Below are positions 27,989-38,075 of a stretch of 64,000 nucleotides of DNA, piece after piece. How positions within the stretch are numbered: the first letter of the stretch is position 1; each line of letters begins with the position of its first letter. Origin of the DNA: the human T2T-CHM13v2.0 reference genome, Homo sapiens. The notes below the pieces were generated by a model, which saw nothing but the letters and a program-made list of their open reading frames with translations, was not told where the DNA came from and did not search any database. The stretch lies in assembly GCF_009914755.1 (NCBI RefSeq), contig NC_060941.1; one strand, given 5' to 3'. Both the position numbers and the translations under genes were made by a program.

Positions 27989-28240
27989 GAGCCTGGTCAT
28001 TCTTAAACAGTGGGCAGAATCTCTTGAGAGTCTTTGCTCAACTGAGAGCATTTACAGAGGCCCATGTGGTGGGCAGGATGGAGTGATCCTCCAGTGGACT
28101 TTTCTGAACCACCTTGGACTCTTGCCTATCGGCTGCTATGTCCCCACGGTCAGGCTGCAGGCACCCGCTAGTCCTCAACCCCTGCGGAGCTTCCCTGGCT
28201 CTGCTATGTGACCCTCACCAGTGGCCCCTCCACCTTGCTT

Positions 28241-28253
28241 TGCCCCCTGGTGG
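28241..28253 (-). promoter_or_regulatory. CTCF core motif
   Basis: Reverse complement CCACCAGGGGGCA. Confidence 0.4.
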
Positions 28254-28899
28254 GCCCCCTCCCATCCTGCTCTCTCTGGTTGAGACCCTTTGCCTTTGGC
28301 TTGTCCTTTGCCTTCTTGCCTCTCAGCCCTATCCTTGTGTCTGGGGGCACTGGTCTTATTGCTGCTGCTGCTGTGTTTCTGTGTTTTTTTAAGCTATCCC
28401 TTTATTCCAAGCCCAAAAGCCTTGTTATAGCTCCTGCTCCTTGAACCCCAGGCTGACCCAGAGACCAGGTCCAGCTCGGGAAGGGAACTGGGACCTTCTT
28501 CCTGTTCCTCCCTGCTAGGGCATTAGCATTTCCCCAAGATAGTTTTGAAGACTTTGCTTGGCTTGGGAAGCCAGCGCAGTGAGCCCCACACCAATGATCT
28601 GATGGTAGCAAGGGGCTCACTGATAAGGGTTTGAACGATACCTTTCTGGGGTGGACATGGCTCCTGCATTTCCAATTGTCTGCCCCAGTAGGCCGCCAAA
28701 GCGCTGCTCAGTCTTGCTGGAGGCCTGGGTGGGTGGGAGTGGTCGGGAGGAGAGGGGAGGGGAACACAAGATCAGAAAAGAAGAGACTGGGCTCTGAGAG
28801 GACCTCTGGGCAAGGACGGGAATGATTAGAAGGGACGTTTGGGAGTGCCCGCTGAGCTGGCACAGAGCAATTTGCTGAGGAGCCCAGTGGTGCCTGGAT

Positions 28900-29195
28900 G
28901 GAGAAGTCACAATGGGACACGTCCAAAGGCTGTGCTTGTGCTTCCCTCCTACAACATGGACTAGCTAACAACGCAGAAGGAAGCCACCGGCGGAGCAGCA
29001 GTGCTCGGGGATGGAAATGGTCCTGGTGGCATTTGGGTCTTTGTAAAGATGCAGCTATCCCCGAGCTTCCAGCTACATCCCTGTACTTCCCACAGCTAGT
29101 TCTTCAACTCACCCAACAAACCAAATACATTCCTTTTGGCTTAACCTTGATTGAGTGCTTCTGTCACTTACAATCAAAAGAATTCTGACTCAAAT
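28900..29195 (+). mobile_element. Old MLT1(K/L-like) LTR 3' part
   Basis: Ends TCTGTCACTTACAATCAAAAGAATTCTGACT. Confidence 0.45.
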
Positions 29196-29211
29196 CCACT
29201 CATCTGCATAA

Positions 29212-29637
<426 letters not shown>

Positions 29638-30049
29638 TGACCAGCCTCTTCTGCTCTGACTTGCAAGGAACTCAAGCTGTTCTGCATTCCAGGGCCAGGA
29701 GAGGACCAGGACAAGGCGAGAGCATTCCTGGGCATTGCTTTCTTTGCATTTCATGAGATGCTGTGAGCTCTTCAGAGGGAGTGATAGGCTGGTTTCCGGA
29801 TGGCACACCTGTGGCCACACATTCGTGGTCCTGCTTTGATGAGTGGCTGCCTCTGAAAGTGCAGGGCAGGGAGAGAGATGCAGACAGCAGGTGCAGGTTC
29901 TGCTCCAAGCACCACCTTCTCCCTGAAGGAGGAAGGCTCCTGGGACTAAGTCATTGATTTTTTTTCTAATAAATAAAAATCTAAAGTAAACCAAAATCTT
30001 CACAGGTATCCTGTGTTCTGTTCTCAGAGATGAAAAGATTTGAAGCATG

Positions 30050-30108
30050 CTCTCTCTCTCTCACACACACACACATACACACACACACATACACACACAC
30101 ACACACAC
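30050..30108. repeat. (CT)n(CA)n microsatellite
   Basis: Directly visible. Confidence 0.95.
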
Positions 30109-30725
30109 CCCTTCCCCAGCCTCCTCTCCTGCTGGCCTCCTCTTCTCTCTGAAGCTTGTTTGCGAAGCTCAGCCTAGCAAGTCTGTCTTCTGGAGCGTCA
30201 AGACTCGGTATCAGTGGCAACATCAAAGAAATGTGTTCTTTTCATATGCTTGTCTGCTTGTGTCTAAATCCAGAGTAATGATTTTCTCCTAAATGAATAG
30301 CTCTTCGCTGCTTTCCCTCGCCCGTATAAAGTGGAGCAGCGAGCAGTTTGCTAGTACTGGATCAGACCACACCCCGTGACAACTCAGCATATTGTCTGTT
30401 CATCTTAGAAGAAACCCTTCTTTGCTTTCATGTGAATTTGCGTCTGAACGATTTGCTGATGCCATGTGACATATCATGACAGGGGAAGAATAACAAAGCT
30501 TATTAGTGGGGTTGGTAGGAGGAGCATGGGGTTGTGCGAGCTCTATTTCTTCTTCCACAAATATCTCCTGAGCAGCTACTGTGTGCCTAGCATTCTGAGT
30601 GCATGAAATTGCATCCTAGCGAGATGTGCGTCCCTCTCCCTGAATGGGAGCAAAGACCATGCACCTAATGCAGTGCTTGGCATAAACTAAATCTCTGTCA
30701 CATAAATGGGTCTTTGGTATTATTA

Positions 30726-31179
30726 TGTGGTGGATTGCATAAAGCACCAGGATATTTTGCAGCTCCTCCCAGTAAGAGATGAAGTCATCGATTTCACCAC
30801 CCTTTGAATCTGGGCTGGGCTTGTCTTGCATTGGCCAATGGAATACCATGAAACTGACATGTGATTGCTAATCATAAGTGTCAAGAGGCCCTGCACCTTC
30901 CCTTCTTGCTGCTCTGGGAACCCTGAGCCATCATGTGAAGGAGTCCAGACCAGCCTGCTGGGTGACGGTGATGAGAGACACATGTTACCCCCAGCATCAC
31001 AGCCAGCAGCCAGCTGACTTCCAGAGGCAGCACCACCGAGCTGACTGGCAGCTGAATACAGACACATGGGTGAGCCCAGCCAAGATCGGCTAAGTCTGGC
31101 TCAGACCAGAAGAACCACTTAGATGAGCCCAGTCTAAACTGCCAACTCACAAAACTGTGGGCTAAAGAAATCATCATTG
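30726..31179 (+). mobile_element. MLT1G/H-like LTR, 5' portion
   Basis: TGTGG start; CTTTGAATCTGGGCTGG; CAGAAGAACCAC...GAGCCCAG; breaks at AAATCATCATTG. Confidence 0.75.
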
Positions 31180-31376
31180 ATTTTTAATCTTTAATAATGT
31201 TTTTTGCCCAGTTTTTCAGTTAATACGGTGATACATATTTTATATAATGTTTTGAAAATACATACTACTACTCTTAACATTCAGTATTCTTTGTTTTATG
31301 CATACAAAGATATCTACTATGTATAGATTCTGATGTGATAGGAAAAAAACAACAAATTCCTTTTTCCTTTGTATTC

Positions 31377-32600
31377 TGAGATATTGGAAAAACCAAAGTG
31401 GTTTTTCTACTCTCTACTTGATATGGTTTGGCTTTGTCCCCACCCAAATCTCATCATGAATTGTAACTCCCGCAATTCCTAGGTGCTGTGGAAGGAACCT
31501 GGTGGGAGGTGATTGAATTATGGGGCGGGTCTTTCCTGCGCTGTTCTCGTAATAGTGAATGAGTCTCATGAGATCTGATGGTTTTAAAAATGTGAGTTTC
31601 CCTGCACAAGCTGTCTCTCTCTCTTTGCCTGCTGCCATCTATGTAAGACATGACTTGCCCCTCCTTGCCTTTCACCATGACTATGAGGCCTCTCCAGCCA
31701 TGTGGAACTGTAAGTCCATTAAACCTCTTTTTCTTCTCAGTCTTGGGTATGTCTTTATCAGCAGCATGAAAACGGACTAATACACTACTCAACACAACAC
31801 TTCCAACACCTGCTATGTTGGGGTTGTTTCTCCACATACCAAGCAATTCTCCAGCAGACTCTAGCTGAGTGTCCTCTTATTATATTCAACTCTGACCATG
31901 TCTACCTGGAGATAGTGTATGATCCCCTAGGTTGAGGACTCAGTCCCACAAGACTACCCCCCGCCTCAGATGCCAGTCGCAAATAGTAGGTTGTCACCTA
32001 TACTTCTGACCAACCTGCTGTAAGTTGGAGTTCCCAAGACCCCCTCTTGGGTTCAATCAACTTTCTAGAGTGGCTCACAGAACTCAGGGAAACACTTTAC
32101 CACCCATTTGTGATAAAAAAAAAAAAAAAATTACGAAGGATACAAACGAATGGCCAGATGGAAGAGATGCACAGGGCAAGCTGTAGGGGCGAGGAGTGCA
32201 GAACCTCTATGCCTTCTCTGGGCATGCCACCCTCCAAGAACCTCCATTGTGTTTAGCTATCTGGAGGCTCTCTTAACCCTTTCCTTTGGGATTTTTATTG
32301 AGGCTTCATTACATAGGCACGATTGATTACATTATTGACCAATGGTGATCAACTTAACCTTCAGTTCCTCTCCCTCCCAAGAGGTTGGGGGATGGGGCTA
32401 AAAGTTCCAACCTCCTAATCATACTTTAGTCTTCCCAGTAACCAACCCCCATCCTGAAGCTACCTAGGGAACCTCCTGGCCACCAGTCATTCGTTATCAT
32501 ACAAAGGATATTTTTATCACTCTGGAGACTCCAAAGGTTTTTGGAGCTGTATGACAGGGAATGAGGAGGAAGACCAAATATTTTTTTTACAATATTGCAT
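31377..32600 (-). mobile_element. MER21-like LTR (contains THE1B)
   Basis: CTACCTGGAGATAG...CTCAGTCCCACAAGACT...GTGGCTCACAGAACTCAGGGAAACAC...GAAGACCAAATA. Confidence 0.75.
31419..31784 (+). mobile_element. THE1B solo LTR
   Basis: TGATATGGTTTGGC...GGACTAATACA; perfect TSD CTACT. Confidence 0.93.
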
Positions 32601-32841
32601 AGATATTCATGTACAACATTGCACAATATTGCATAGAGAGTAATAATAACCTCCAGTAGGTTCTTAGTTGCAAAGGACCCCTGTTACAAAGGATAGATTA
32701 ACAAGAGAAAAACAAGCAGAAATTTATTAACATGTATATTTCATATATGCATGGGAGACAACCAGAGAATGAGTAGTTCTCAAAGAGGTGGCTTTGAATT
32801 CTAACTTCTATGGCATCTTCAACAAAGAACAATAAATCTTT

Positions 32842-33787
32842 TTATTATTATTATACTTTAAGTTCTGGGATACATGTGCAGAACGTGCAGGTTTGTTGCA
32901 TAGGTATACACGTGCCATGGTGGTTTGCTGCACCTATCAACCCATCATCTACATTAGGTATTTCTCCTAATGCTATCCTTCCCCCAGCCCCTGACTCCCC
33001 AACAGGCCCTGGTGTGTGATGTTCCCCTCCCTGTGTCCATGTGTTCTCATTGTTCAATTCCCACTCATGAGTGAGAACATGCGGTGTTTGGTTTTCTGTT
33101 CCTGTGTTTGCTGAGAATTATGGTTTCCAACTTCATCCATGTCCCTCCAAAGGACATGAACTCATCCTTTATATGGCTGCATAGTATTCCATGGTGTATA
33201 TGTGTCACATTTTCTTTATTCAGTCTATCATTGATGGGCATTTGGGTTGGTTCCAAGTCTTTGCTCTTGTGAACAGTGCTGCAATAAACATACATGTGCA
33301 TGTGTCTTTATAGTAGAATGATTTATAATCCTTTGGGCGTATACCCAGTAATGGGATTGCTGGGTCAAATGGTATTTCTGGCTCTAGATCCTTGAGGAAT
33401 CACCACACTGTCTTCCACAATGGTTGAACTAATTTACACTCCCACCAACAGTGTAAAAGCATCCCAATTCCTCCACTTCGTCTCCAGCATCTGTTGTTTC
33501 CTGACTTTTTAATGATCACCATTCTAACTGGCATGAAATGATATCTCACTGTGGTTTTGATTTGCATTTCTCTAATGACCAGTGATCACAAGCTTTTTTT
33601 CATATGTTTGTTGGCCACATGAATGTCTTCTTTTGAGAAATGTCTGTTCCTACCCTTCCCCCACTTTTTGATGGGGTTGTTTGCTTTTTTCTTGTAAATT
33701 TGTTTAAGTTCTTTGTAGAATCTGGATATTAGCCCTTTTTCAGATGGATAGATTGCAAACATTTTCTCCCGTTCTGTAGGTTGCCTG
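32842..33787 (-). mobile_element. 5'-truncated L1PA (L1PA7-like) 3' end with ORF2 remnant
   Basis: TTATACTTTAAGTTCTGGGATACATGTGCAGAACGTGCAGG; TSD TAAATCTTT at 32833-32841 and 33794-33802. Confidence 0.92.
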
Positions 33788-34494
33788 GTAGTGTAAATCT
33801 TTAGAGAAGTGACAAAACAAAGGAAAAGGACTTTGAGTCTCTATGGGAAGCAATTTGAGGGGGTGGAGAGACAAGCAAATGGCAGATAAAAGCTAGTTTG
33901 TAAAGCTTGTTAATATAAATTCCTGTGGTGTCATCTAAAGCTGTCTTCCATGATTAACCTTTGTTCTGTCTGGTAGAGAGGGAGGCAGGATACTTGTCTT
34001 TGCAAATCTATGTCCTGCTTTCAGGCAATAGAGGGAGGATGGAACACTGTCCTGTATTTGATTCTTCTTAACTGCCTTCAATTCAACAATCTTTCATATT
34101 TTGGGAGGTATATTCTAGTCTCCCATATTCATTAAACTAAACAAAAAGGGAATAGGATCACACTCTACAGACTAAATTGTATTCTACTTTTTTTAACTTA
34201 AAGAATTGTGAACACTTTTGTTGCAATGAAGTACTATCTTATAGTATTTTTTTTAGCCATATGTATTTTATTTCATTGTTGTTCATTGAAATAACCCCTT
34301 ATGGATGGACATTGACACCGTTTTTATATTTTGCTATTTTAAATAAGATTGTGATGACTATACTTACAAAAATATCTTAAGATCTACCTCTGATTATTTC
34401 CTTACGACAAATTATTTTGAAATGGAAGTGCTGGATTAAAGAAAAGTTCCGTTTTCAAGGCCTCAGATCATGTTGTCATATTGCTGTACAGAGG

Positions 34495-35030
34495 CAGTTC
34501 TCAAACCTTTTGGTCTCAGTGCTTTTTTACACTCTTAAAAAATACTGAAGATCCCAAAGAGCCTGTGTTTATGTTAGTTACTTCTATCAATATGTGGCTG
34601 CGTTTTAGGGAGCACAGAGAGGCAAAAGGGATGGTGTGGGTACTAGCTATTTTAGAAATTAAAGCATAGAGATTTTAAGAATATTAATTCACTTAAAATA
34701 ATGACGATAAACTCCTTAAATGCTAACATAAATTAAGGTAACATGTTATTTACAAAACAAAAAATATTTAGCGTGAAGAATGGCATGGATTTACATTTTT
34801 GCAAATCTCATCAAAATCTAGCTTAATGAAAGATGCTGGATTGTCCTATCTGCTTCTGCATCAATATGTTGCAAAATGACACATCATAGAGCCTGTGGAA
34901 AGCTCCATTGTCTACCATGGAGAGAATGAGAGTAGAAAAAGAAAAAAACATCTTAGTACTATTATGAAAATAGTTTGATCACCTGCAGATCTTCAAAGGG
35001 CCTCAGGAAGCCCTAGGGGTCCAGGGAACA
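34495..35030 (+). mobile_element. Charlie1b-like hAT transposon
   Basis: TCTCAAACCTTTTGGTCTCAG...TTTACACTCTTAAAAA...TTTTTGCAAATCTC...ATTATGAAAATAGTTT. Confidence 0.75.
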
Positions 35031-35105
35031 TTACCTTTAAAAAACAAATTTAAAAATCTTTACTAATTTGTTAAGCAAAAAGTAAAATCTCTTAGTTGCT
35101 ATTTT

Positions 35106-35164
35106 CTAAATATCTTTTTGAGGCCTAAATTACATACCATAAAGTTTACCCATTTAAAGTGTAT
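35106..35164 (-). mobile_element. Very short L1MA/MB extreme 3' end
   Basis: TTGAG...ACATACCATAAAGTTTACCCATTTAAAGTGTA. Confidence 0.6.
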
Positions 35165-35228
35165 AAATCATCATTGCTTTTAGACACTAAGTTTTTGGGT
35201 TGTTACACAGCCAAAGCTAACTGATATA
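35165..35228 (+). mobile_element. MLT1G/H-like LTR, displaced 3' terminus
   Basis: AAATCATCATTG then CACTAAGTTTTTGGGTTGTTACACAGC...TAACTGATA. Confidence 0.75.
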
Positions 35229-36279
35229 AATTACGTATTAACATTGACAGTGAAAGAGAAGCATTGAATAAATAGCATGAAAAAGCATAAGATGAATAGC
35301 TTCTGTACAGTTACAACAGTTAAATCAATATGTGACATTATTATTGCTATTGTTACTATTAGTAACAGTCAAATATTTACTGAGTTCCTGCTGTAAGCAT
35401 TTATTATTCTCTATCTCATTCAGATTTCTCCATAACCACCCTGTGAAAGATGATTTATTAGCTCAATTTCTGTCCTCACAGATTTAAAGAAACTATTATC
35501 GTCCATCACAGTGGTGCTATGTTGATACCATCCCTGCTCCCAAAGAGTGAGTGAGATGTACAAATGTGAAACATCAAAAGAATGCCATCCATTTATTCTT
35601 TCATTTATTTATTTTCTAGATGTTTGTTGAGGATCCAAATTGCACCAGGCTCTGTGCTAGACTCTGGGGGAGACAGAGACTAAGGATGAATTTCCCCCCA
35701 CTTACTCCTACCTTCAGGGACTATGACGGTGTTGAGATACATCTCAGATTAGTTCATTAATGCTGACTCACGTCATAACACTCATTCCAAGATGAGTGAG
35801 GTCGGGGGCGACCGTGGACAGTCTCACACTGGAGGTAGGACTAAGTGCAGTTGGGCTGTGGGAGGAGAGTCGGTGTTTTAGGGAGCACAGAGAAGCAAAG
35901 GCAATGAGTGTGGATATCAGAGAGAAGAATCCCGAGGGCTGAGGGCTGATATTAAGGCAGAGGGAGATCACACTGCCAGGAAAGCTAGGGCTAATTGGAT
36001 AATCCAGGAACTAAAGGCTTCAATGGAATAGTCCAGAGACAGCAAAAATGAGGTACACCTGCTGCTACATCTTTGTTCTGAATGGCAGACATCATTAATC
36101 AACCACCTCCTACAGAGCCTGGGTCTTTTTCAACCCAGTGATCCAGGAAGCCACCACAAAGCAATCAGAGTGTGCATACATGATGAACCCTATTTGCCAT
36201 TGTTGAAATAGTCATTCTCTCTCCTGCGGACAAAAGACAAAAATATTCAGTAGGCTCCAGATAAGGTGAATCATAGGGT

Positions 36280-36470
36280 AAAATAGAGAACTCTGGAGCT
36301 AGATTTCCTGAGGTTGGAACCTGGTTTATCTACATACCAACTGTAGGACCTTGTGCAAGATATGTGATCTCTCTGTTCCTCAGTTTCCATGTCTGAAAAA
36401 TAGGAATAATAGGATTGCTAAGAGGCATGTATGAGATAATACCTTCTAAACATAGCAATGCCCAGCACAT
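36280..36470 (+). mobile_element. MIR
   Basis: CTCTGGAGCTAGA...GACCTTGTGCAAG...CCTCAGTTTCC. Confidence 0.65.
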
Positions 36471-36949
36471 CACTATTTCATTCCAGCGCTCCTACTCTTC
36501 ACTTCTTAATCTTTCCCCATTGCAGCAATCAACCAACCTCCAATTGGATTGAAACAAGAAAATAGACTTAGCAAAGGTGGGTAAAGCATGTGAATGTTAC
36601 AGTTTTGCTGTGTAGACAAGGACAGAGCCCACAACTTCAAACAGCCTCTGGGGAGAAAAGTCATTACCAATCATGCCAATCCCTAGCTGAGCACCCTAGA
36701 GACATGCCTAGCAAAAAGTGAGGTGTCCTATCTCTAGATTTGGAGGACAGCACATTGATGTGTTCCTTTCCTCTATGATTTTTAGAAACGCTCATGATTA
36801 CTCAGTTCCACTGACTATGTTATCTGTTTGGTTAATTTGATGTCCTAACATTGGGAGGACAACACTAGAAATGAAGCACCAAGGGGAGAAGAAAATCAAT
36901 CTCACAAGTAAAGCCTCTGTGATTTCCAGATTTCATAATAGGGAGCCAG

Positions 36950-37765
36950 GGAGGATCCAAATATATTTGCATAAATTCCCCATTGTATACAGAACTCCTT
37001 CCCATCAATAAGAAAATAGTCTATAAGCCAGTAGAAAACTAAGCAAAGACTACGATCAGGGAGATCACTGGAAAAGAAATATTAATAGCTTTGAAATAAA
37101 TGAAAAGATGTTAACTATCTTGAGATACCATATTTTACCTACAAGATGGGCAAGGTTGTTATAATTTGATAATACTCAGTGTTGGAAGGTGGGAGAGGAG
37201 ACAGGTGCTCTCATACATTGACGATGGAGGCATTAAATAGTAGAACCTCATGTAGATCAATTTGACAATATCAATCACAATTACAAATCCCATAACAGAA
37301 TTGTACACATGTGAAATGACACATATGTGAGATTATTATTGTGGTGTAATTTGTGTTAAAGTTGAGAAACAACCAATCAATAGGGACTTGTTAAATAAAT
37401 TATGATACAGCTGCGTAATGGAAAAATATATAGGTATAAAAGAGGAATAAGAAAGATCTTATATACAGAAATGGGATTATCTCCAAGATATGTTGATAAG
37501 ACTGTTAAAAGCAAGATATAGGATATAATTTATAGTATGTTGTTATTTTTGTAAAAAAGGAGGAGAAAAAATATATTTGCTTGTTTTTAGAGACTCACTC
37601 CTCACTCTCTGAAAAGATACCTGTAAATTGAGCAACTGTGGCTGGTCTAGAGAGGACAATTGGGTGGCTGGGACCAGGAGAAGGAAGAGGACTTCCCATC
37701 TATACATGCTTGTACCTTTCAACTGTCCACCATGAGAACATATTTACCAATTCAGTAATTAAAAT
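36950..37765 (+). mobile_element. L1ME 3' region
   Basis: ATGAAAAGATG...GAGATACCAT...CTCTCATACATTG...AAATAAATTATG. Confidence 0.6.
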
Positions 37766-37767
37766 AA

Positions 37768-38075
37768 GACCAGGTGCGGTGGTGCACGCCTGTAATCTCA
37801 GCACTTTGGGAGGCTGAGGCAGGTGGATGACTTCAGGTGAGGAGATCAGCCTGGCCAACACCGGGAAACCCCATCTCTATTAAAAATACAAAAATTAGCC
37901 GGGAGTGGTGGCACACACCTGTAGTCCCCGCTACTTGAGAGGCTGAGGCAGGAGAATTGCTTGAACCTGGGAGGCAGAGGTTGCAGTGAGCCGATCACAC
38001 CACTGCACTCCAGCCTGGGCAACAGAGTGAGTTCCTATCTCAAATAAATAAATAAAATATAAAGATAAAAAAACA
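37768..38075 (+). mobile_element. AluS
   Basis: Dimer with A-rich tail. Confidence 0.92.

What the first reader, a model, noticed from the sequence alone, without database searches (positions are those of the whole stretch)
31168..35176. ~4-kb TSD-flanked block splitting an MLT1 LTR: probable ancient L1 3' transduction
Seen: the MLT1 LTR stops at AAATCATCATTG (31168-31179) and resumes at an identical 12-mer (35165-35176). Read on the minus strand, the insert is a ~60-bp L1MA/MB extreme 3' end (35106-35164), then AT-rich DNA made of heavily decayed L1ME plus a Charlie1b, then ATTAAA-like signals and an A-rich end at the TSD. Established: L1 TPRT gives 7-20-bp TSDs, 5' truncation and 3' transduction of flanking DNA. 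Inference: a very old-looking L1ME inside an LTR with a pristine TSD is age-inverted. About 1.2 kb of foreign DNA (net of later inserts) was therefore probably carried in by a younger L1, and a source locus should exist elsewhere. Standard annotation would list only unrelated fragments.
Basis: partly seen in the sequence, partly recalled or inferred. Interest (0 to 1): 0.7.

Follow-up and report, generated by a model that had tools for sequence, protein, structure and literature searches.

The report
Old L1-carried insert splitting an LTR
An ancient retrovirus-like LTR on human chromosome 17 was split long ago by a LINE-1-driven insertion of about 1.2 kb, copied from a stretch that survives on chromosome 2; this is an ordinary kind of event, well preserved here.

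Summary
AAATCATCATTG occurs twice in the window (31168-31179, 35165-35176). Related MaLR (MLT1-type, name recalled) LTR copies carry that stretch once, so it is a true target-site duplication. On the minus strand the insert starts with the last ~65 nt of an L1M-type element (35098-35164) and ends A-rich with ATTAAA at 31180. The target fits the L1 endonuclease site.

The rest of the original insert (~1.18 kb) is the 3'-terminal part of an older L1 that already carried a Charlie-type transposon.

The later inserts at 31331-34125 are two LTR-like repeats. Nested within them are a THE1-like solo LTR and an L1PA-like piece. Three of the four have clean duplications; Y's is only a possible one.

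New here: a collinear paralogue at chr2:70,109,401-70,115,054 shares the old-L1/Charlie junctions (75-78% identity, K2P 0.26-0.30). It has no L1M end at the junction. It reads there like an empty TT|AAAA site.

Best reading (0.5): a 3' transduction from an L1M allele at chr2 that was never fixed. Rivals are a template-switch chimera and two stacked insertions.

Interest is low to moderate. Family names could not be checked, because no repeat library was available.

The parts
30726..31179 (+). Left piece of a MaLR (MLT1-type, name recalled) LTR; the last 12 nt are the left copy of the duplication
   Evidence: 37 non-self genome hits at 68-88% identity. 7 of 7 fetched relatives begin to match between 30723 and 30758. 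The start TGTGG at 30726 was read.
31168..31179 (.). Left copy of the target-site duplication AAATCATCATTG. With the next 5 bases it is a 17-mer differing at one base from the right copy.
   Evidence: The stretch is single-copy in 12 of 13 relatives.
31180..31330 (-). 3' end of the original insert ('P4'): A-rich end with two ATTAAA; probably the 3' end of the older L1
   Evidence: signals. 31255-31327 matches chr2 70109401-70109476 and the match stops at the Y insertion site. Only 2 short genome hits, both in the neighbouring Y part.
31331..32599 (.). Y: a discrete ~0.9-kb LTR-like repeat (unnamed), inserted later. It is interrupted by the solo LTR and has a possible TAGAT duplication.
   Evidence: In L028 the two halves lie next to each other. 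Copies are 69-74% alike.
31419..31784 (+). THE1-like (name recalled) solo LTR nested in Y, with a perfect 5-nt duplication CTACT at 31414-31418 and 31785-31789
   Evidence: 39 of 39 non-self hits at 85-89%, nearly all full length. Duplication read. Absent from the Y copy L028.
32610..34125 (.). X: a discrete ~0.55-kb LTR-like repeat (TG...CA, unnamed), inserted later. It is interrupted by the L1PA-like piece and has the duplication TATTCA at 32604-32609 and 34126-34131.
   Evidence: Copies L030-L033 are 72-77% alike and contiguous where the window is interrupted.
32842..33793 (-). 5'-truncated L1PA-like piece nested in X, with the 9-nt duplication TAAATCTTT at 32833-32841 and 33794-33802
   Evidence: 39 of 39 non-self hits at 89-92%. 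Duplication read.
34126..34488 (-). 'P3': part of the older L1 (3'-terminal region), belonging to the original insert
   Evidence: Only 2 non-self genome hits. 34304-34361 matches one L1M comparator 430-488 nt from its 3' end (1 of 10 comparators, E 0.006). 34329-34461 matches chr12 locus L037, which itself matches that comparator 455-654 nt from its end. 34173-34272 and 34408-34488 match chr2.
34489..35030 (.).
   Evidence: 39 non-self hits at 69-79% inside 34648-35023. 39 of 39 non-self hits of the junction query stop at 34481-34498. The chr2 match runs across this end into P3.
35031..35097 (-). 'f': short stretch between the Charlie copy and the L1M end; part of the carried DNA
   Evidence: 35058-35096 matches chr2 70114996-70115034 at 82%. 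A local alignment runs to 35121. 1 hit on real chr2 against 0 on reversed chr2.
35098..35164 (-). Last ~65 nt of an L1M-type element (extreme 3' end plus a short degenerate A-rich stretch); this is the 5' end of the insert
35165..35176 (.). Right copy of the target-site duplication
35177..35228 (+). Right piece (3' terminal part) of the same LTR
   Evidence: 8 non-self hits at 77-88%. 6 of 6 fetched relatives carry the preceding LTR part directly upstream. End read.

Best explanation
A MaLR-type solo LTR was hit, roughly 60-100 million years ago, by one L1-mediated (target-primed) insertion of about 1.18 kb, sense on the minus strand. The inserted RNA had two parts. The first was the last ~65 nt of an L1M-type element. 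It was followed directly by the 3'-terminal ~0.65 kb of a much older, dead L1 that already carried a Charlie-type DNA transposon. The RNA ended at an ATTAAA near that old L1's own 3' end. The carried part was copied from the locus now at chr2:70,109,401-70,115,054, or from a copy of it. The most likely mechanism is a 3' transduction. An active L1M sat in the same orientation at a TT|AAAA site inside the old L1 at chr2. It was transcribed through its own weak signal into the old L1 and polyadenylated there. It was then reverse-transcribed at the chr17 target and truncated 65 nt before the L1M end, with the 5' end joined at a 5-6-nt microhomology. That L1M allele was never fixed, so today's chr2 shows the empty site. 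Shown: the duplication, the L1M end, the composite nature, the chr2 paralogy and the order of nesting. Inferred: read-through transcription and the lost source allele.
For: The duplication is real. On the sense (minus) strand the target reads CT|AAAAG followed by the 12-mer. That gives a bottom-strand TTTT/AG and a 17-nt duplication with one mismatch, which fits the L1 site and the 4-20-nt range quoted in PMC4859970 (passages read).

The L1M extreme 3' end lies at the 5' end of the insert, in the same orientation as the A-rich end. 31 of 38 hit alignments run 1-9 nt into the right 12-mer, which shows microhomology between the target and the L1 sequence upstream of the truncation point.

The carried DNA is an older L1 plus a Charlie-type element. 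The chr2 locus matches collinearly, on the same strand, in 7 segments that include both flanks of the Charlie copy and the far 3' piece. The controls were clean: 0 hits on reversed chr2, and among 9 other loci only the chr12 L1 copy matched.

Chr2 has no LTR flanks and no L1M end at the junction. At the junction the window sense strand reads ...GATATTTAG then AAAATAGCAACTAAGAGAT, and chr2 reads ...GCAAATT then AAAATCACGAAGAGAT. So chr2 has a TT|AAAA site exactly where the L1M end begins. This is what a source-site duplication after the first A stretch would look like (PMC4859970, passages).

Non-reference, polymorphic L1s are documented transduction sources (PMC9311842, passages).
Against: No locus shows an L1M abutting the carried DNA. 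The only paralogue found lacks it, so the lost-allele step is an assumption.

The first A stretch is at most ~10 degenerate bases and overlaps an A-rich patch that chr2 also has. It is therefore not independent evidence.

The genome searches are weak at ~70% identity. Chr2 itself was found genome-wide only through one 84-nt hit, only the top 40 candidates are scored in each search, and closed regions are hidden. A third locus could have been missed.

The homologue of the block's last 75 nt on chr2 is disrupted by three Alus. Whether the block ends at the old L1's natural end is therefore not shown.
Confidence: 0.5

Rival explanations
1. Chimeric retrocopy by template switching (or RNA ligation). 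The L1 machinery reverse-transcribed, in trans, a transcript of the chr2 old-L1/Charlie region. At an A-rich patch the nascent T-rich cDNA moved onto the poly(A) end of an L1M mRNA, copied its last ~65 nt, and was then joined to the target.
For: Chr2 as it stands can be the parent without any lost allele. The junction lies at an A-rich patch present in chr2. Both parts are in the same orientation inside one duplication with one terminal A-rich end, as described for chimeras made by template switching or ligation (PMC13174262 and PMC4859970, passages).
Against: It needs two rare things at once: mobilisation of a non-coding transcript in trans, and a switch. In the catalogued chimeras the L1 is usually the 3' part, where reverse transcription starts, and the partner RNA is the 5' part (PMC13174262, passages). 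Here the L1M piece is the 5' part. There is no evidence that the chr2 region was transcribed.
Confidence: 0.2
2. Two successive insertions. First a 65-nt L1M fragment with a poly(A) tail entered the LTR and made the 12-17-nt duplication. Later a trans-mobilised copy of the chr2 old-L1/Charlie transcript inserted, in the same orientation, into that tail.
For: Poly(A) tails are good L1 endonuclease targets (established knowledge, recalled), and the final layout would be the same. Short AAAAT-type strings stand at both ends of the carried part.
Against: No second duplication can be told apart from A-rich background. It needs a second hit in a ~20-nt tail by a rare kind of retrocopy. It gives no reason why the carried copy should start exactly at a TT|AAAA site of the chr2 sequence.
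Confidence: 0.15
3. A plain 5'-truncated insertion of one old L1, with the Charlie copy arriving afterwards.
For: The carried part is L1-derived and may end at that L1's own 3' end.
Against: The 35098-35164 piece is an extreme 3' end placed upstream of a region that lies ~430-650 nt from an L1 3' end, so the two are not collinear. Chr2 shares the Charlie copy at the same position with both flanks, so the Charlie copy was there before the copying.
Confidence: 0.03
4. A DNA-level duplication or a chance 12-mer repeat; not a retrotransposition.
For: None beyond the general possibility.
Against: 0 of 100 shuffles give two copies. The stretch is single-copy in 12 of 13 relatives. The insert has an A-rich end and an endonuclease-type target. 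Chr2 has no LTR flanks.
Confidence: 0.02

Closest known systems
L1 3' transduction (read-through of the L1 poly(A) signal and co-mobilisation of downstream DNA; PMC4859970 and PMC9311842, passages read)
   Same: An L1 3' end is followed in the same orientation by foreign DNA that ends at a downstream ATTAAA and an A-rich tail. There is one pair of duplications of 12-17 nt at a TTTT/A-type site, severe 5' truncation, and a parental locus for the carried DNA on another chromosome.
   Different: The parental locus has no L1 at the junction. The first A stretch is minimal. The carried DNA is itself an older L1 fragment with a nested DNA transposon, and the signal used probably belongs to that old L1.
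Chimeric retrocopies made by template switching or RNA ligation, such as U6/L1, Alu/L1 and mRNA/L1 (PMC13174262, passages read; Buzdin 2003 seen only in its reference list)
   Same: Two unrelated RNAs lie head to tail in one orientation, inside one duplication, at an L1 endonuclease site.
   Different: In the catalogued cases L1 is normally the 3' partner. Here the active-type L1 piece is the 5' partner and only 65 nt long.
Nested-repeat stratigraphy (younger elements interrupt older ones; PMC2836564 seen in a search listing only)
   Same: The order LTR < block < X/Y < THE1-like LTR and L1PA-like piece follows both the nesting and the copy-to-copy identities.
   Different: Nothing unusual.

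Membership tests
L1-mediated (target-primed) insertion | Flanking target-site duplication of about 4-20 nt | tested here: met
   12 of 12 identical, or 16 of 17 with the adjoining bases. Single-copy in 12 of 13 related LTRs.
L1-mediated (target-primed) insertion | Target resembling 5'-TTTT/AA-3' on the primed strand | tested here: met
   The plus strand reads ...CATTGCTTTT/AGACAC at the right copy, that is TTTT/AG if the duplication is 17 nt. With a strict 12-nt duplication the site would be ATTG/CT, a poor fit.
L1-mediated (target-primed) insertion | A-rich 3' end next to the duplication, in the sense orientation | tested here: met
   The last 20 nt on the minus strand are A-rich and end in AAAAAT. 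Only 5 consecutive A remain.
L1 3' transduction | L1 3' end followed, in the same orientation, by DNA that is not its own | tested here: met
   (extreme 3' end). (what follows maps to chr2 and to a region 430-650 nt from an L1 end).
L1 3' transduction | Two A stretches: one after the L1 and one at the end | tested here: inconclusive
   The first is about 10 degenerate bases and overlaps an A-rich patch that chr2 also has. The second is short.
L1 3' transduction | Poly(A) signal shortly before the end of the carried DNA | tested here: met
   ATTAAA ends 10 nt and 3 nt before the last base. In such AT-rich sequence this is weak evidence.
L1 3' transduction | A source locus where an L1 abuts the carried DNA | tested here: not met
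   The only paralogue, on chr2, has no L1M end at the junction. No other locus was found. The searches are of limited sensitivity and closed regions are hidden.
MaLR LTR of the MLT1 kind | Sequence similarity to other copies over the whole LTR | tested here: met
   relatives cover 30723-31179 and 35165-35228 at 68-88%. That these relatives are 'MLT1' is recalled, not shown by a tool.
MaLR LTR of the MLT1 kind | 5-nt duplication around a solo LTR | tested here: inconclusive
   TATTA at 30721-30725 against AATTA at 35229-35233, 4 of 5. The LTR ends are placed only to within a few nt.
MaLR LTR of the MLT1 kind | Subfamily assignment against a curated repeat library | not testable with these tools
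   No Dfam or Repbase library was at hand. PMC5753468 (tables read) only lists the names.
THE1-type solo LTR (nested) | Full-length LTR with a 5-nt duplication and no internal part | tested here: met
   366 nt. 39 of 39 hits at 85-89%. CTACT on both sides. The Y copy L028 is uninterrupted there. Name recalled.
Charlie-type hAT transposon | Family-wide terminus, terminal inverted repeats and an 8-nt duplication | tested here: inconclusive
   Left terminus shown (39 of 39 hits stop at 34481-34498). The right end is decayed in the window. No 8-nt duplication was established.
Template-switch / ligation chimera | Two RNAs in one orientation within one duplication, with the usual layout of partner RNA 5' and L1 3' | tested here: inconclusive
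   Same orientation and a single duplication are met. The layout is the reverse of the usual one (PMC13174262, passages).

The most novel reading that the evidence does not exclude
The chr17 block and the chr2 locus together are a fossil pair: offspring plus the empty parental site of an L1M source allele that was active but never fixed. The block would then be the only surviving trace of that element, and it would show an active L1 borrowing the poly(A) signal of a dead L1 in which it sat. Alternatively, it is a reverse-order template-switch chimera, with the L1 mRNA end as the 5' partner. I did not see that layout described in the passages I read; the catalogue tables are in supplements I could not open.
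Probability: 0.2. Interest if true: 0.4.

Novelty: new member of a known kind. Interest (0 to 1): 0.25.

Why it matters
It is a worked example showing that what a standard annotation lists as unrelated fragments (L1M end, old L1, Charlie) can be one retrotransposition event with a traceable parent locus. It also shows that a perfect duplication does not by itself mean a young insertion. For the LTR itself the result is ordinary: an old, dead MaLR solo LTR in intergenic DNA downstream of CACNG5. It has no genes and no sign of function. The chr2/chr17 pair could serve as a dated marker if other mammals are examined.

Tried and rejected
Whole-block search for a near-identical source: none. All 39 non-self hits of 34128-35164 lie inside the Charlie part at 69-79% (40 of 676 candidates scored).

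Direct blastn of P4, P3 and f against the window's L1PA-like piece and against two L1 pieces on chr2: nothing better than E 0.01. The old-L1 identity of P3 therefore rests on one weak direct hit (1 of 10 comparators) plus the chr12 bridge. P4 and f gave no L1 hit (0 of 10 each), so calling them L1 is inference from position.

I thought by eye that chr2 right of the junction continues as L1. Only a 26-nt match (E 0.004) and one off-register hit support this, so I do not rely on it.

The L1M-type element 'b' on chr2 (about 70109852-70112040, minus strand) was considered as the source and rejected. It lies between the homologues of P4 and P3, so read-through from it could carry only P4.

Protein-level tests of the L1 remnant were not attempted. 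The frames are broken, and the tools take no read-through here.

Orthologous sites in other mammals could not be examined, because no mammalian genomes were at hand.

Rfam, protein, structure and viral-contig tools were not used, as they do not bear on this question.

Literature searches were on general terms. I did not search print for this locus and make no claim that it is unpublished. The supplement tables of PMC13174262 and PMC9311842, which list chimeras and transductions, were closed and might bear on this.

In one search I dropped rows of >=80% identity over >=200 nt as Alu-to-Alu matches before listing, and did not record how many.

The identities come only from the segments that blastn could align, so they overstate similarity and understate age. 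The neutral rate used for the age (about 2.2e-9 per site per year) is recalled.


Full report
OBSERVATION. The window reads AAATCATCATTG at 31168-31179 and again at 35165-35176. These are the only two matches in 64 kb, and none of 100 dinucleotide-preserving shuffles gave two. Left of the first copy and right of the second lies one LTR.

The left piece (query 30760-31179) has 37 non-self relatives in the human genome at 68-88% identity. The right piece (35165-35260) has 8 at 77-88%. I fetched 13 of these relatives with their flanks and read them across the junction.
- 6 of 7 left-piece relatives continue straight into the LTR's 3' terminal part. The seventh is interrupted by an Alu-like insert.
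- 6 of 6 right-piece relatives have the preceding LTR part directly upstream.
- In all 12 uninterrupted copies the stretch equivalent to the 12-mer occurs once.

The 12-mer is therefore LTR sequence that was duplicated here, which makes it a true target-site duplication. Seven further relatives place the LTR start at about 30726. It ends at about 35228, with a possible 5-nt duplication of its own (TATTA/AATTA, 4 of 5). That points to a solo LTR of about 0.5 kb. No repeat library was available, and PMC5753468 (tables read) only lists the family names. No internal retroviral genes are present, and none were needed for the naming.

THE 5' END OF THE INSERT (sense on the minus strand). A genome search with 35025-35176 gave 38 non-self hits, all within query 4-94. 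All 14 of 14 fetched hits show the same motif, followed shortly by unrelated flank (judged by eye from the printed flanks; most show a short A run first). Ten longer comparators all match 35083/35112-35164 at their very 3' ends (10 of 10). The subfamily was not verified.

31 of the 38 alignments extend 1-9 nt into the right 12-mer. Related LTRs show that those bases are ancestral LTR sequence. This is therefore microhomology between the target and the L1 sequence just upstream of the truncation point.

THE 3' END AND THE TARGET. The minus strand ends ...CATTATTAAAGATTAAAAAT at 31180, with ATTAAA ending 10 and 3 nt before the last base. On the plus strand the two 12-mers are followed by ATTTT and CTTTT, so the duplication may be 17 nt with one mismatch. 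The primed strand then reads TTTT/AG. This fits the 5'-TTTT/AA-3' site and the 4-20-nt duplications described in PMC4859970 (passages read).

LATER INSERTS. Four elements lie between 31331 and 34125.
- Y (31331-31418 plus 31785-32599) is a discrete ~0.9-kb repeat. Copies elsewhere are 69-74% alike. In one of them (L028) the two halves are adjacent.
- Nested in Y is a complete 366-nt THE1-like solo LTR (31419-31784). It has a perfect CTACT duplication, and 39 of 39 genome hits are at 85-89%.
- X (32610-32841 plus 33794-34125) is a discrete ~0.55-kb LTR-like repeat (TG...CA). It is flanked by TATTCA, and its copies are 72-77% alike and uninterrupted.
- Nested in X is a 5'-truncated L1PA-like piece (32842-33793, minus strand). 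It is flanked by TAAATCTTT, and 39 of 39 hits are at 89-92%.

I could not name X and Y. Their flanking duplications show that 31180-31330 and 34126-35164 were once adjacent.

WHAT WAS CARRIED.
- 34489 to about 35030 is a copy of an abundant Charlie-type family. In one search, all 39 non-self hits fall inside 34648-35023 at 69-79%.
- The family's left terminus lies at 34489-34494. All 39 of 39 non-self hits of a junction query stop at 34481-34498.
- The neighbouring 34126-34488 is nearly unique, with 2 non-self hits. Part of it is nonetheless old L1 in the sense orientation. 34304-34361 matches one of ten L1M comparators 430-488 nt from its 3' end (E 0.006). 34329-34461 matches a chr12 locus (E 1.5e-14), and that locus matches the same comparator 455-654 nt from its end (E 1e-11). 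The coordinates agree.
- By position, the block's A-rich end may therefore be that old L1's own 3' end. This is inference.

THE PARALOGUE. The one informative hit led to chr2 (T2T-CHM13) around 70.11 Mb. A sensitive blastn of window 30700-35700 against 20 kb there gave a collinear, same-strand chain:
- 31255-31313 ~ 70109401-456
- 34173-34272 ~ 70112047-149
- 34408-34546 ~ 70112740-876 (this segment crosses the Charlie terminus into its flank)
- 34644-34769 ~ 70113210-336
- 34748-34954 ~ 70113642-848
- 34943-35018 ~ 70114793-871
- 35058-35096 ~ 70114996-70115034

Controls: the non-Charlie pieces gave 4 hits on real chr2 and 0 on reversed chr2. Among 9 other loci (30.4 kb), only the chr12 L1 copy gave a hit.

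The left match ends exactly at the Y insertion site. Further left, chr2 has three Alus, so the homologue of the block's last 75 nt cannot be read. Chr2 has no LTR flanks. It is intergenic, between PCBP1 and LINC01816. It carries later inserts of its own: the MRPL36P1 processed pseudogene, Alus and an L1M-type piece. Over gap-free aligned sites the identity is 78.1% of 343 in the flanks (K2P 0.26) and 75.3% of 389 in the Charlie part (K2P 0.30).

Because both flanks of the Charlie copy are shared, the old L1 and its Charlie copy were copied as one unit. Because chr17 has the duplication and the A-rich end, chr17 is the derived copy.

THE JUNCTION. Chr2 has no L1M end where the window has one (read; 0 of 10 comparators match an L1M 3' end there). 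The chr2 junction stretch has no other relative in the genome. On the sense strand the window reads ...GATATTTAG followed by AAAATAGCAACTAAGAGAT. Chr2 reads ...GCAAATT followed by AAAATCACGAAGAGAT. The L1M end thus begins exactly at a TT|AAAA site of the chr2 sequence.

This is what an L1M inserted into the old L1 would leave behind: its tail, then the source-site duplication. PMC4859970 describes this anatomy for 3' transductions. It is also where a T-rich nascent cDNA could switch onto a poly(A) tail.

MECHANISM AND RIVALS.
- Best reading (0.5): a 3' transduction by an L1M that sat at that chr2 site as an allele that was never fixed, so that today's chr2 is the empty site. Polymorphic, non-reference L1s are documented sources (PMC9311842, passages). 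Read-through would have ended at the old L1's ATTAAA.
- Template switching or RNA ligation between a chr2 transcript and an L1M mRNA (0.2). This needs no lost allele. It does need mobilisation in trans, and the layout is the reverse of the usual one (PMC13174262, passages).
- Two stacked insertions (0.15).
- A plain old-L1 insertion (0.03). This is contradicted by the non-collinear L1M end and by the shared Charlie junctions.
- Chance or DNA-level duplication (0.02).

AGE. Nesting and copy-to-copy identities give the order:
1. LTR (68-88%, short hits).
2. The block (75-78% to chr2).
3. X and Y (69-78%), of roughly similar age to the block.
4. THE1-like LTR (85-89%).
5. L1PA-like piece (89-92%).

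A per-lineage divergence of 0.13-0.15, with a recalled neutral rate of about 2.2e-9 per site per year, gives 60-70 million years. This is a lower bound, because only the alignable segments were counted. I put the insertion at roughly 60-100 million years and the LTR older than that.

At 0.13 per site, two 12-mers staying identical has a chance of about 0.035 (my hand arithmetic). That is unlikely but not an inversion of ages, and AT-rich sites without CpG change more slowly.

VERDICT. The feature is real and belongs to a known kind of event. The specific gain is the chr2 parent, or empty site. No function is suggested. The limits of the searches are these: the top 40 candidates scored per search, about 70% identity, hidden closed regions, no other mammals and no repeat library.

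Noticed in passing
window 32589-32603 and 32623-32637: An exact 15-nt direct repeat, ACAATATTGCATAGA, straddles the end of repeat Y and the start of repeat X. The first ~20 nt of X here have no counterpart in the three X copies whose start I read (L030, L032, L033). Possibly a small local duplication.
   Followed up: partly
L038/L039 (G000:C2:70109480-70112046 and 70114225-70114814): The chr2 paralogue has independently received an L1M-type element in the same orientation, close to the A-rich spot where the window received X and Y. It also has the processed pseudogene MRPL36P1 inside its Charlie copy. The same A-rich sites seem to have been hit repeatedly at both loci.
   Followed up: partly
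L039:900-1000 against window 35024-35057: Chr2 has about 90 nt between the right end of the Charlie copy and stretch 'f' that the window lacks. The Charlie right terminus is decayed or partly deleted in the window.
   Followed up: no
window about 32115-32129: A run of 15 A sits inside repeat Y. I did not check whether the other Y copies have it.
   Followed up: no
window 28000-38000: The soft-masking in the RefSeq file covers only 31490-31789, 32813-33465 and 33478-33789 within the finding. The old LTR, X, Y, the Charlie copy and the old L1 are all unmasked there.
   Followed up: no
L037 (G000:C12:49662926-49663118): A chr12 stretch related both to window 34329-34461 and to an L1M comparator. 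It is an old L1 copy that served as a bridge for naming P3. It lies among several Alus.
   Followed up: partly
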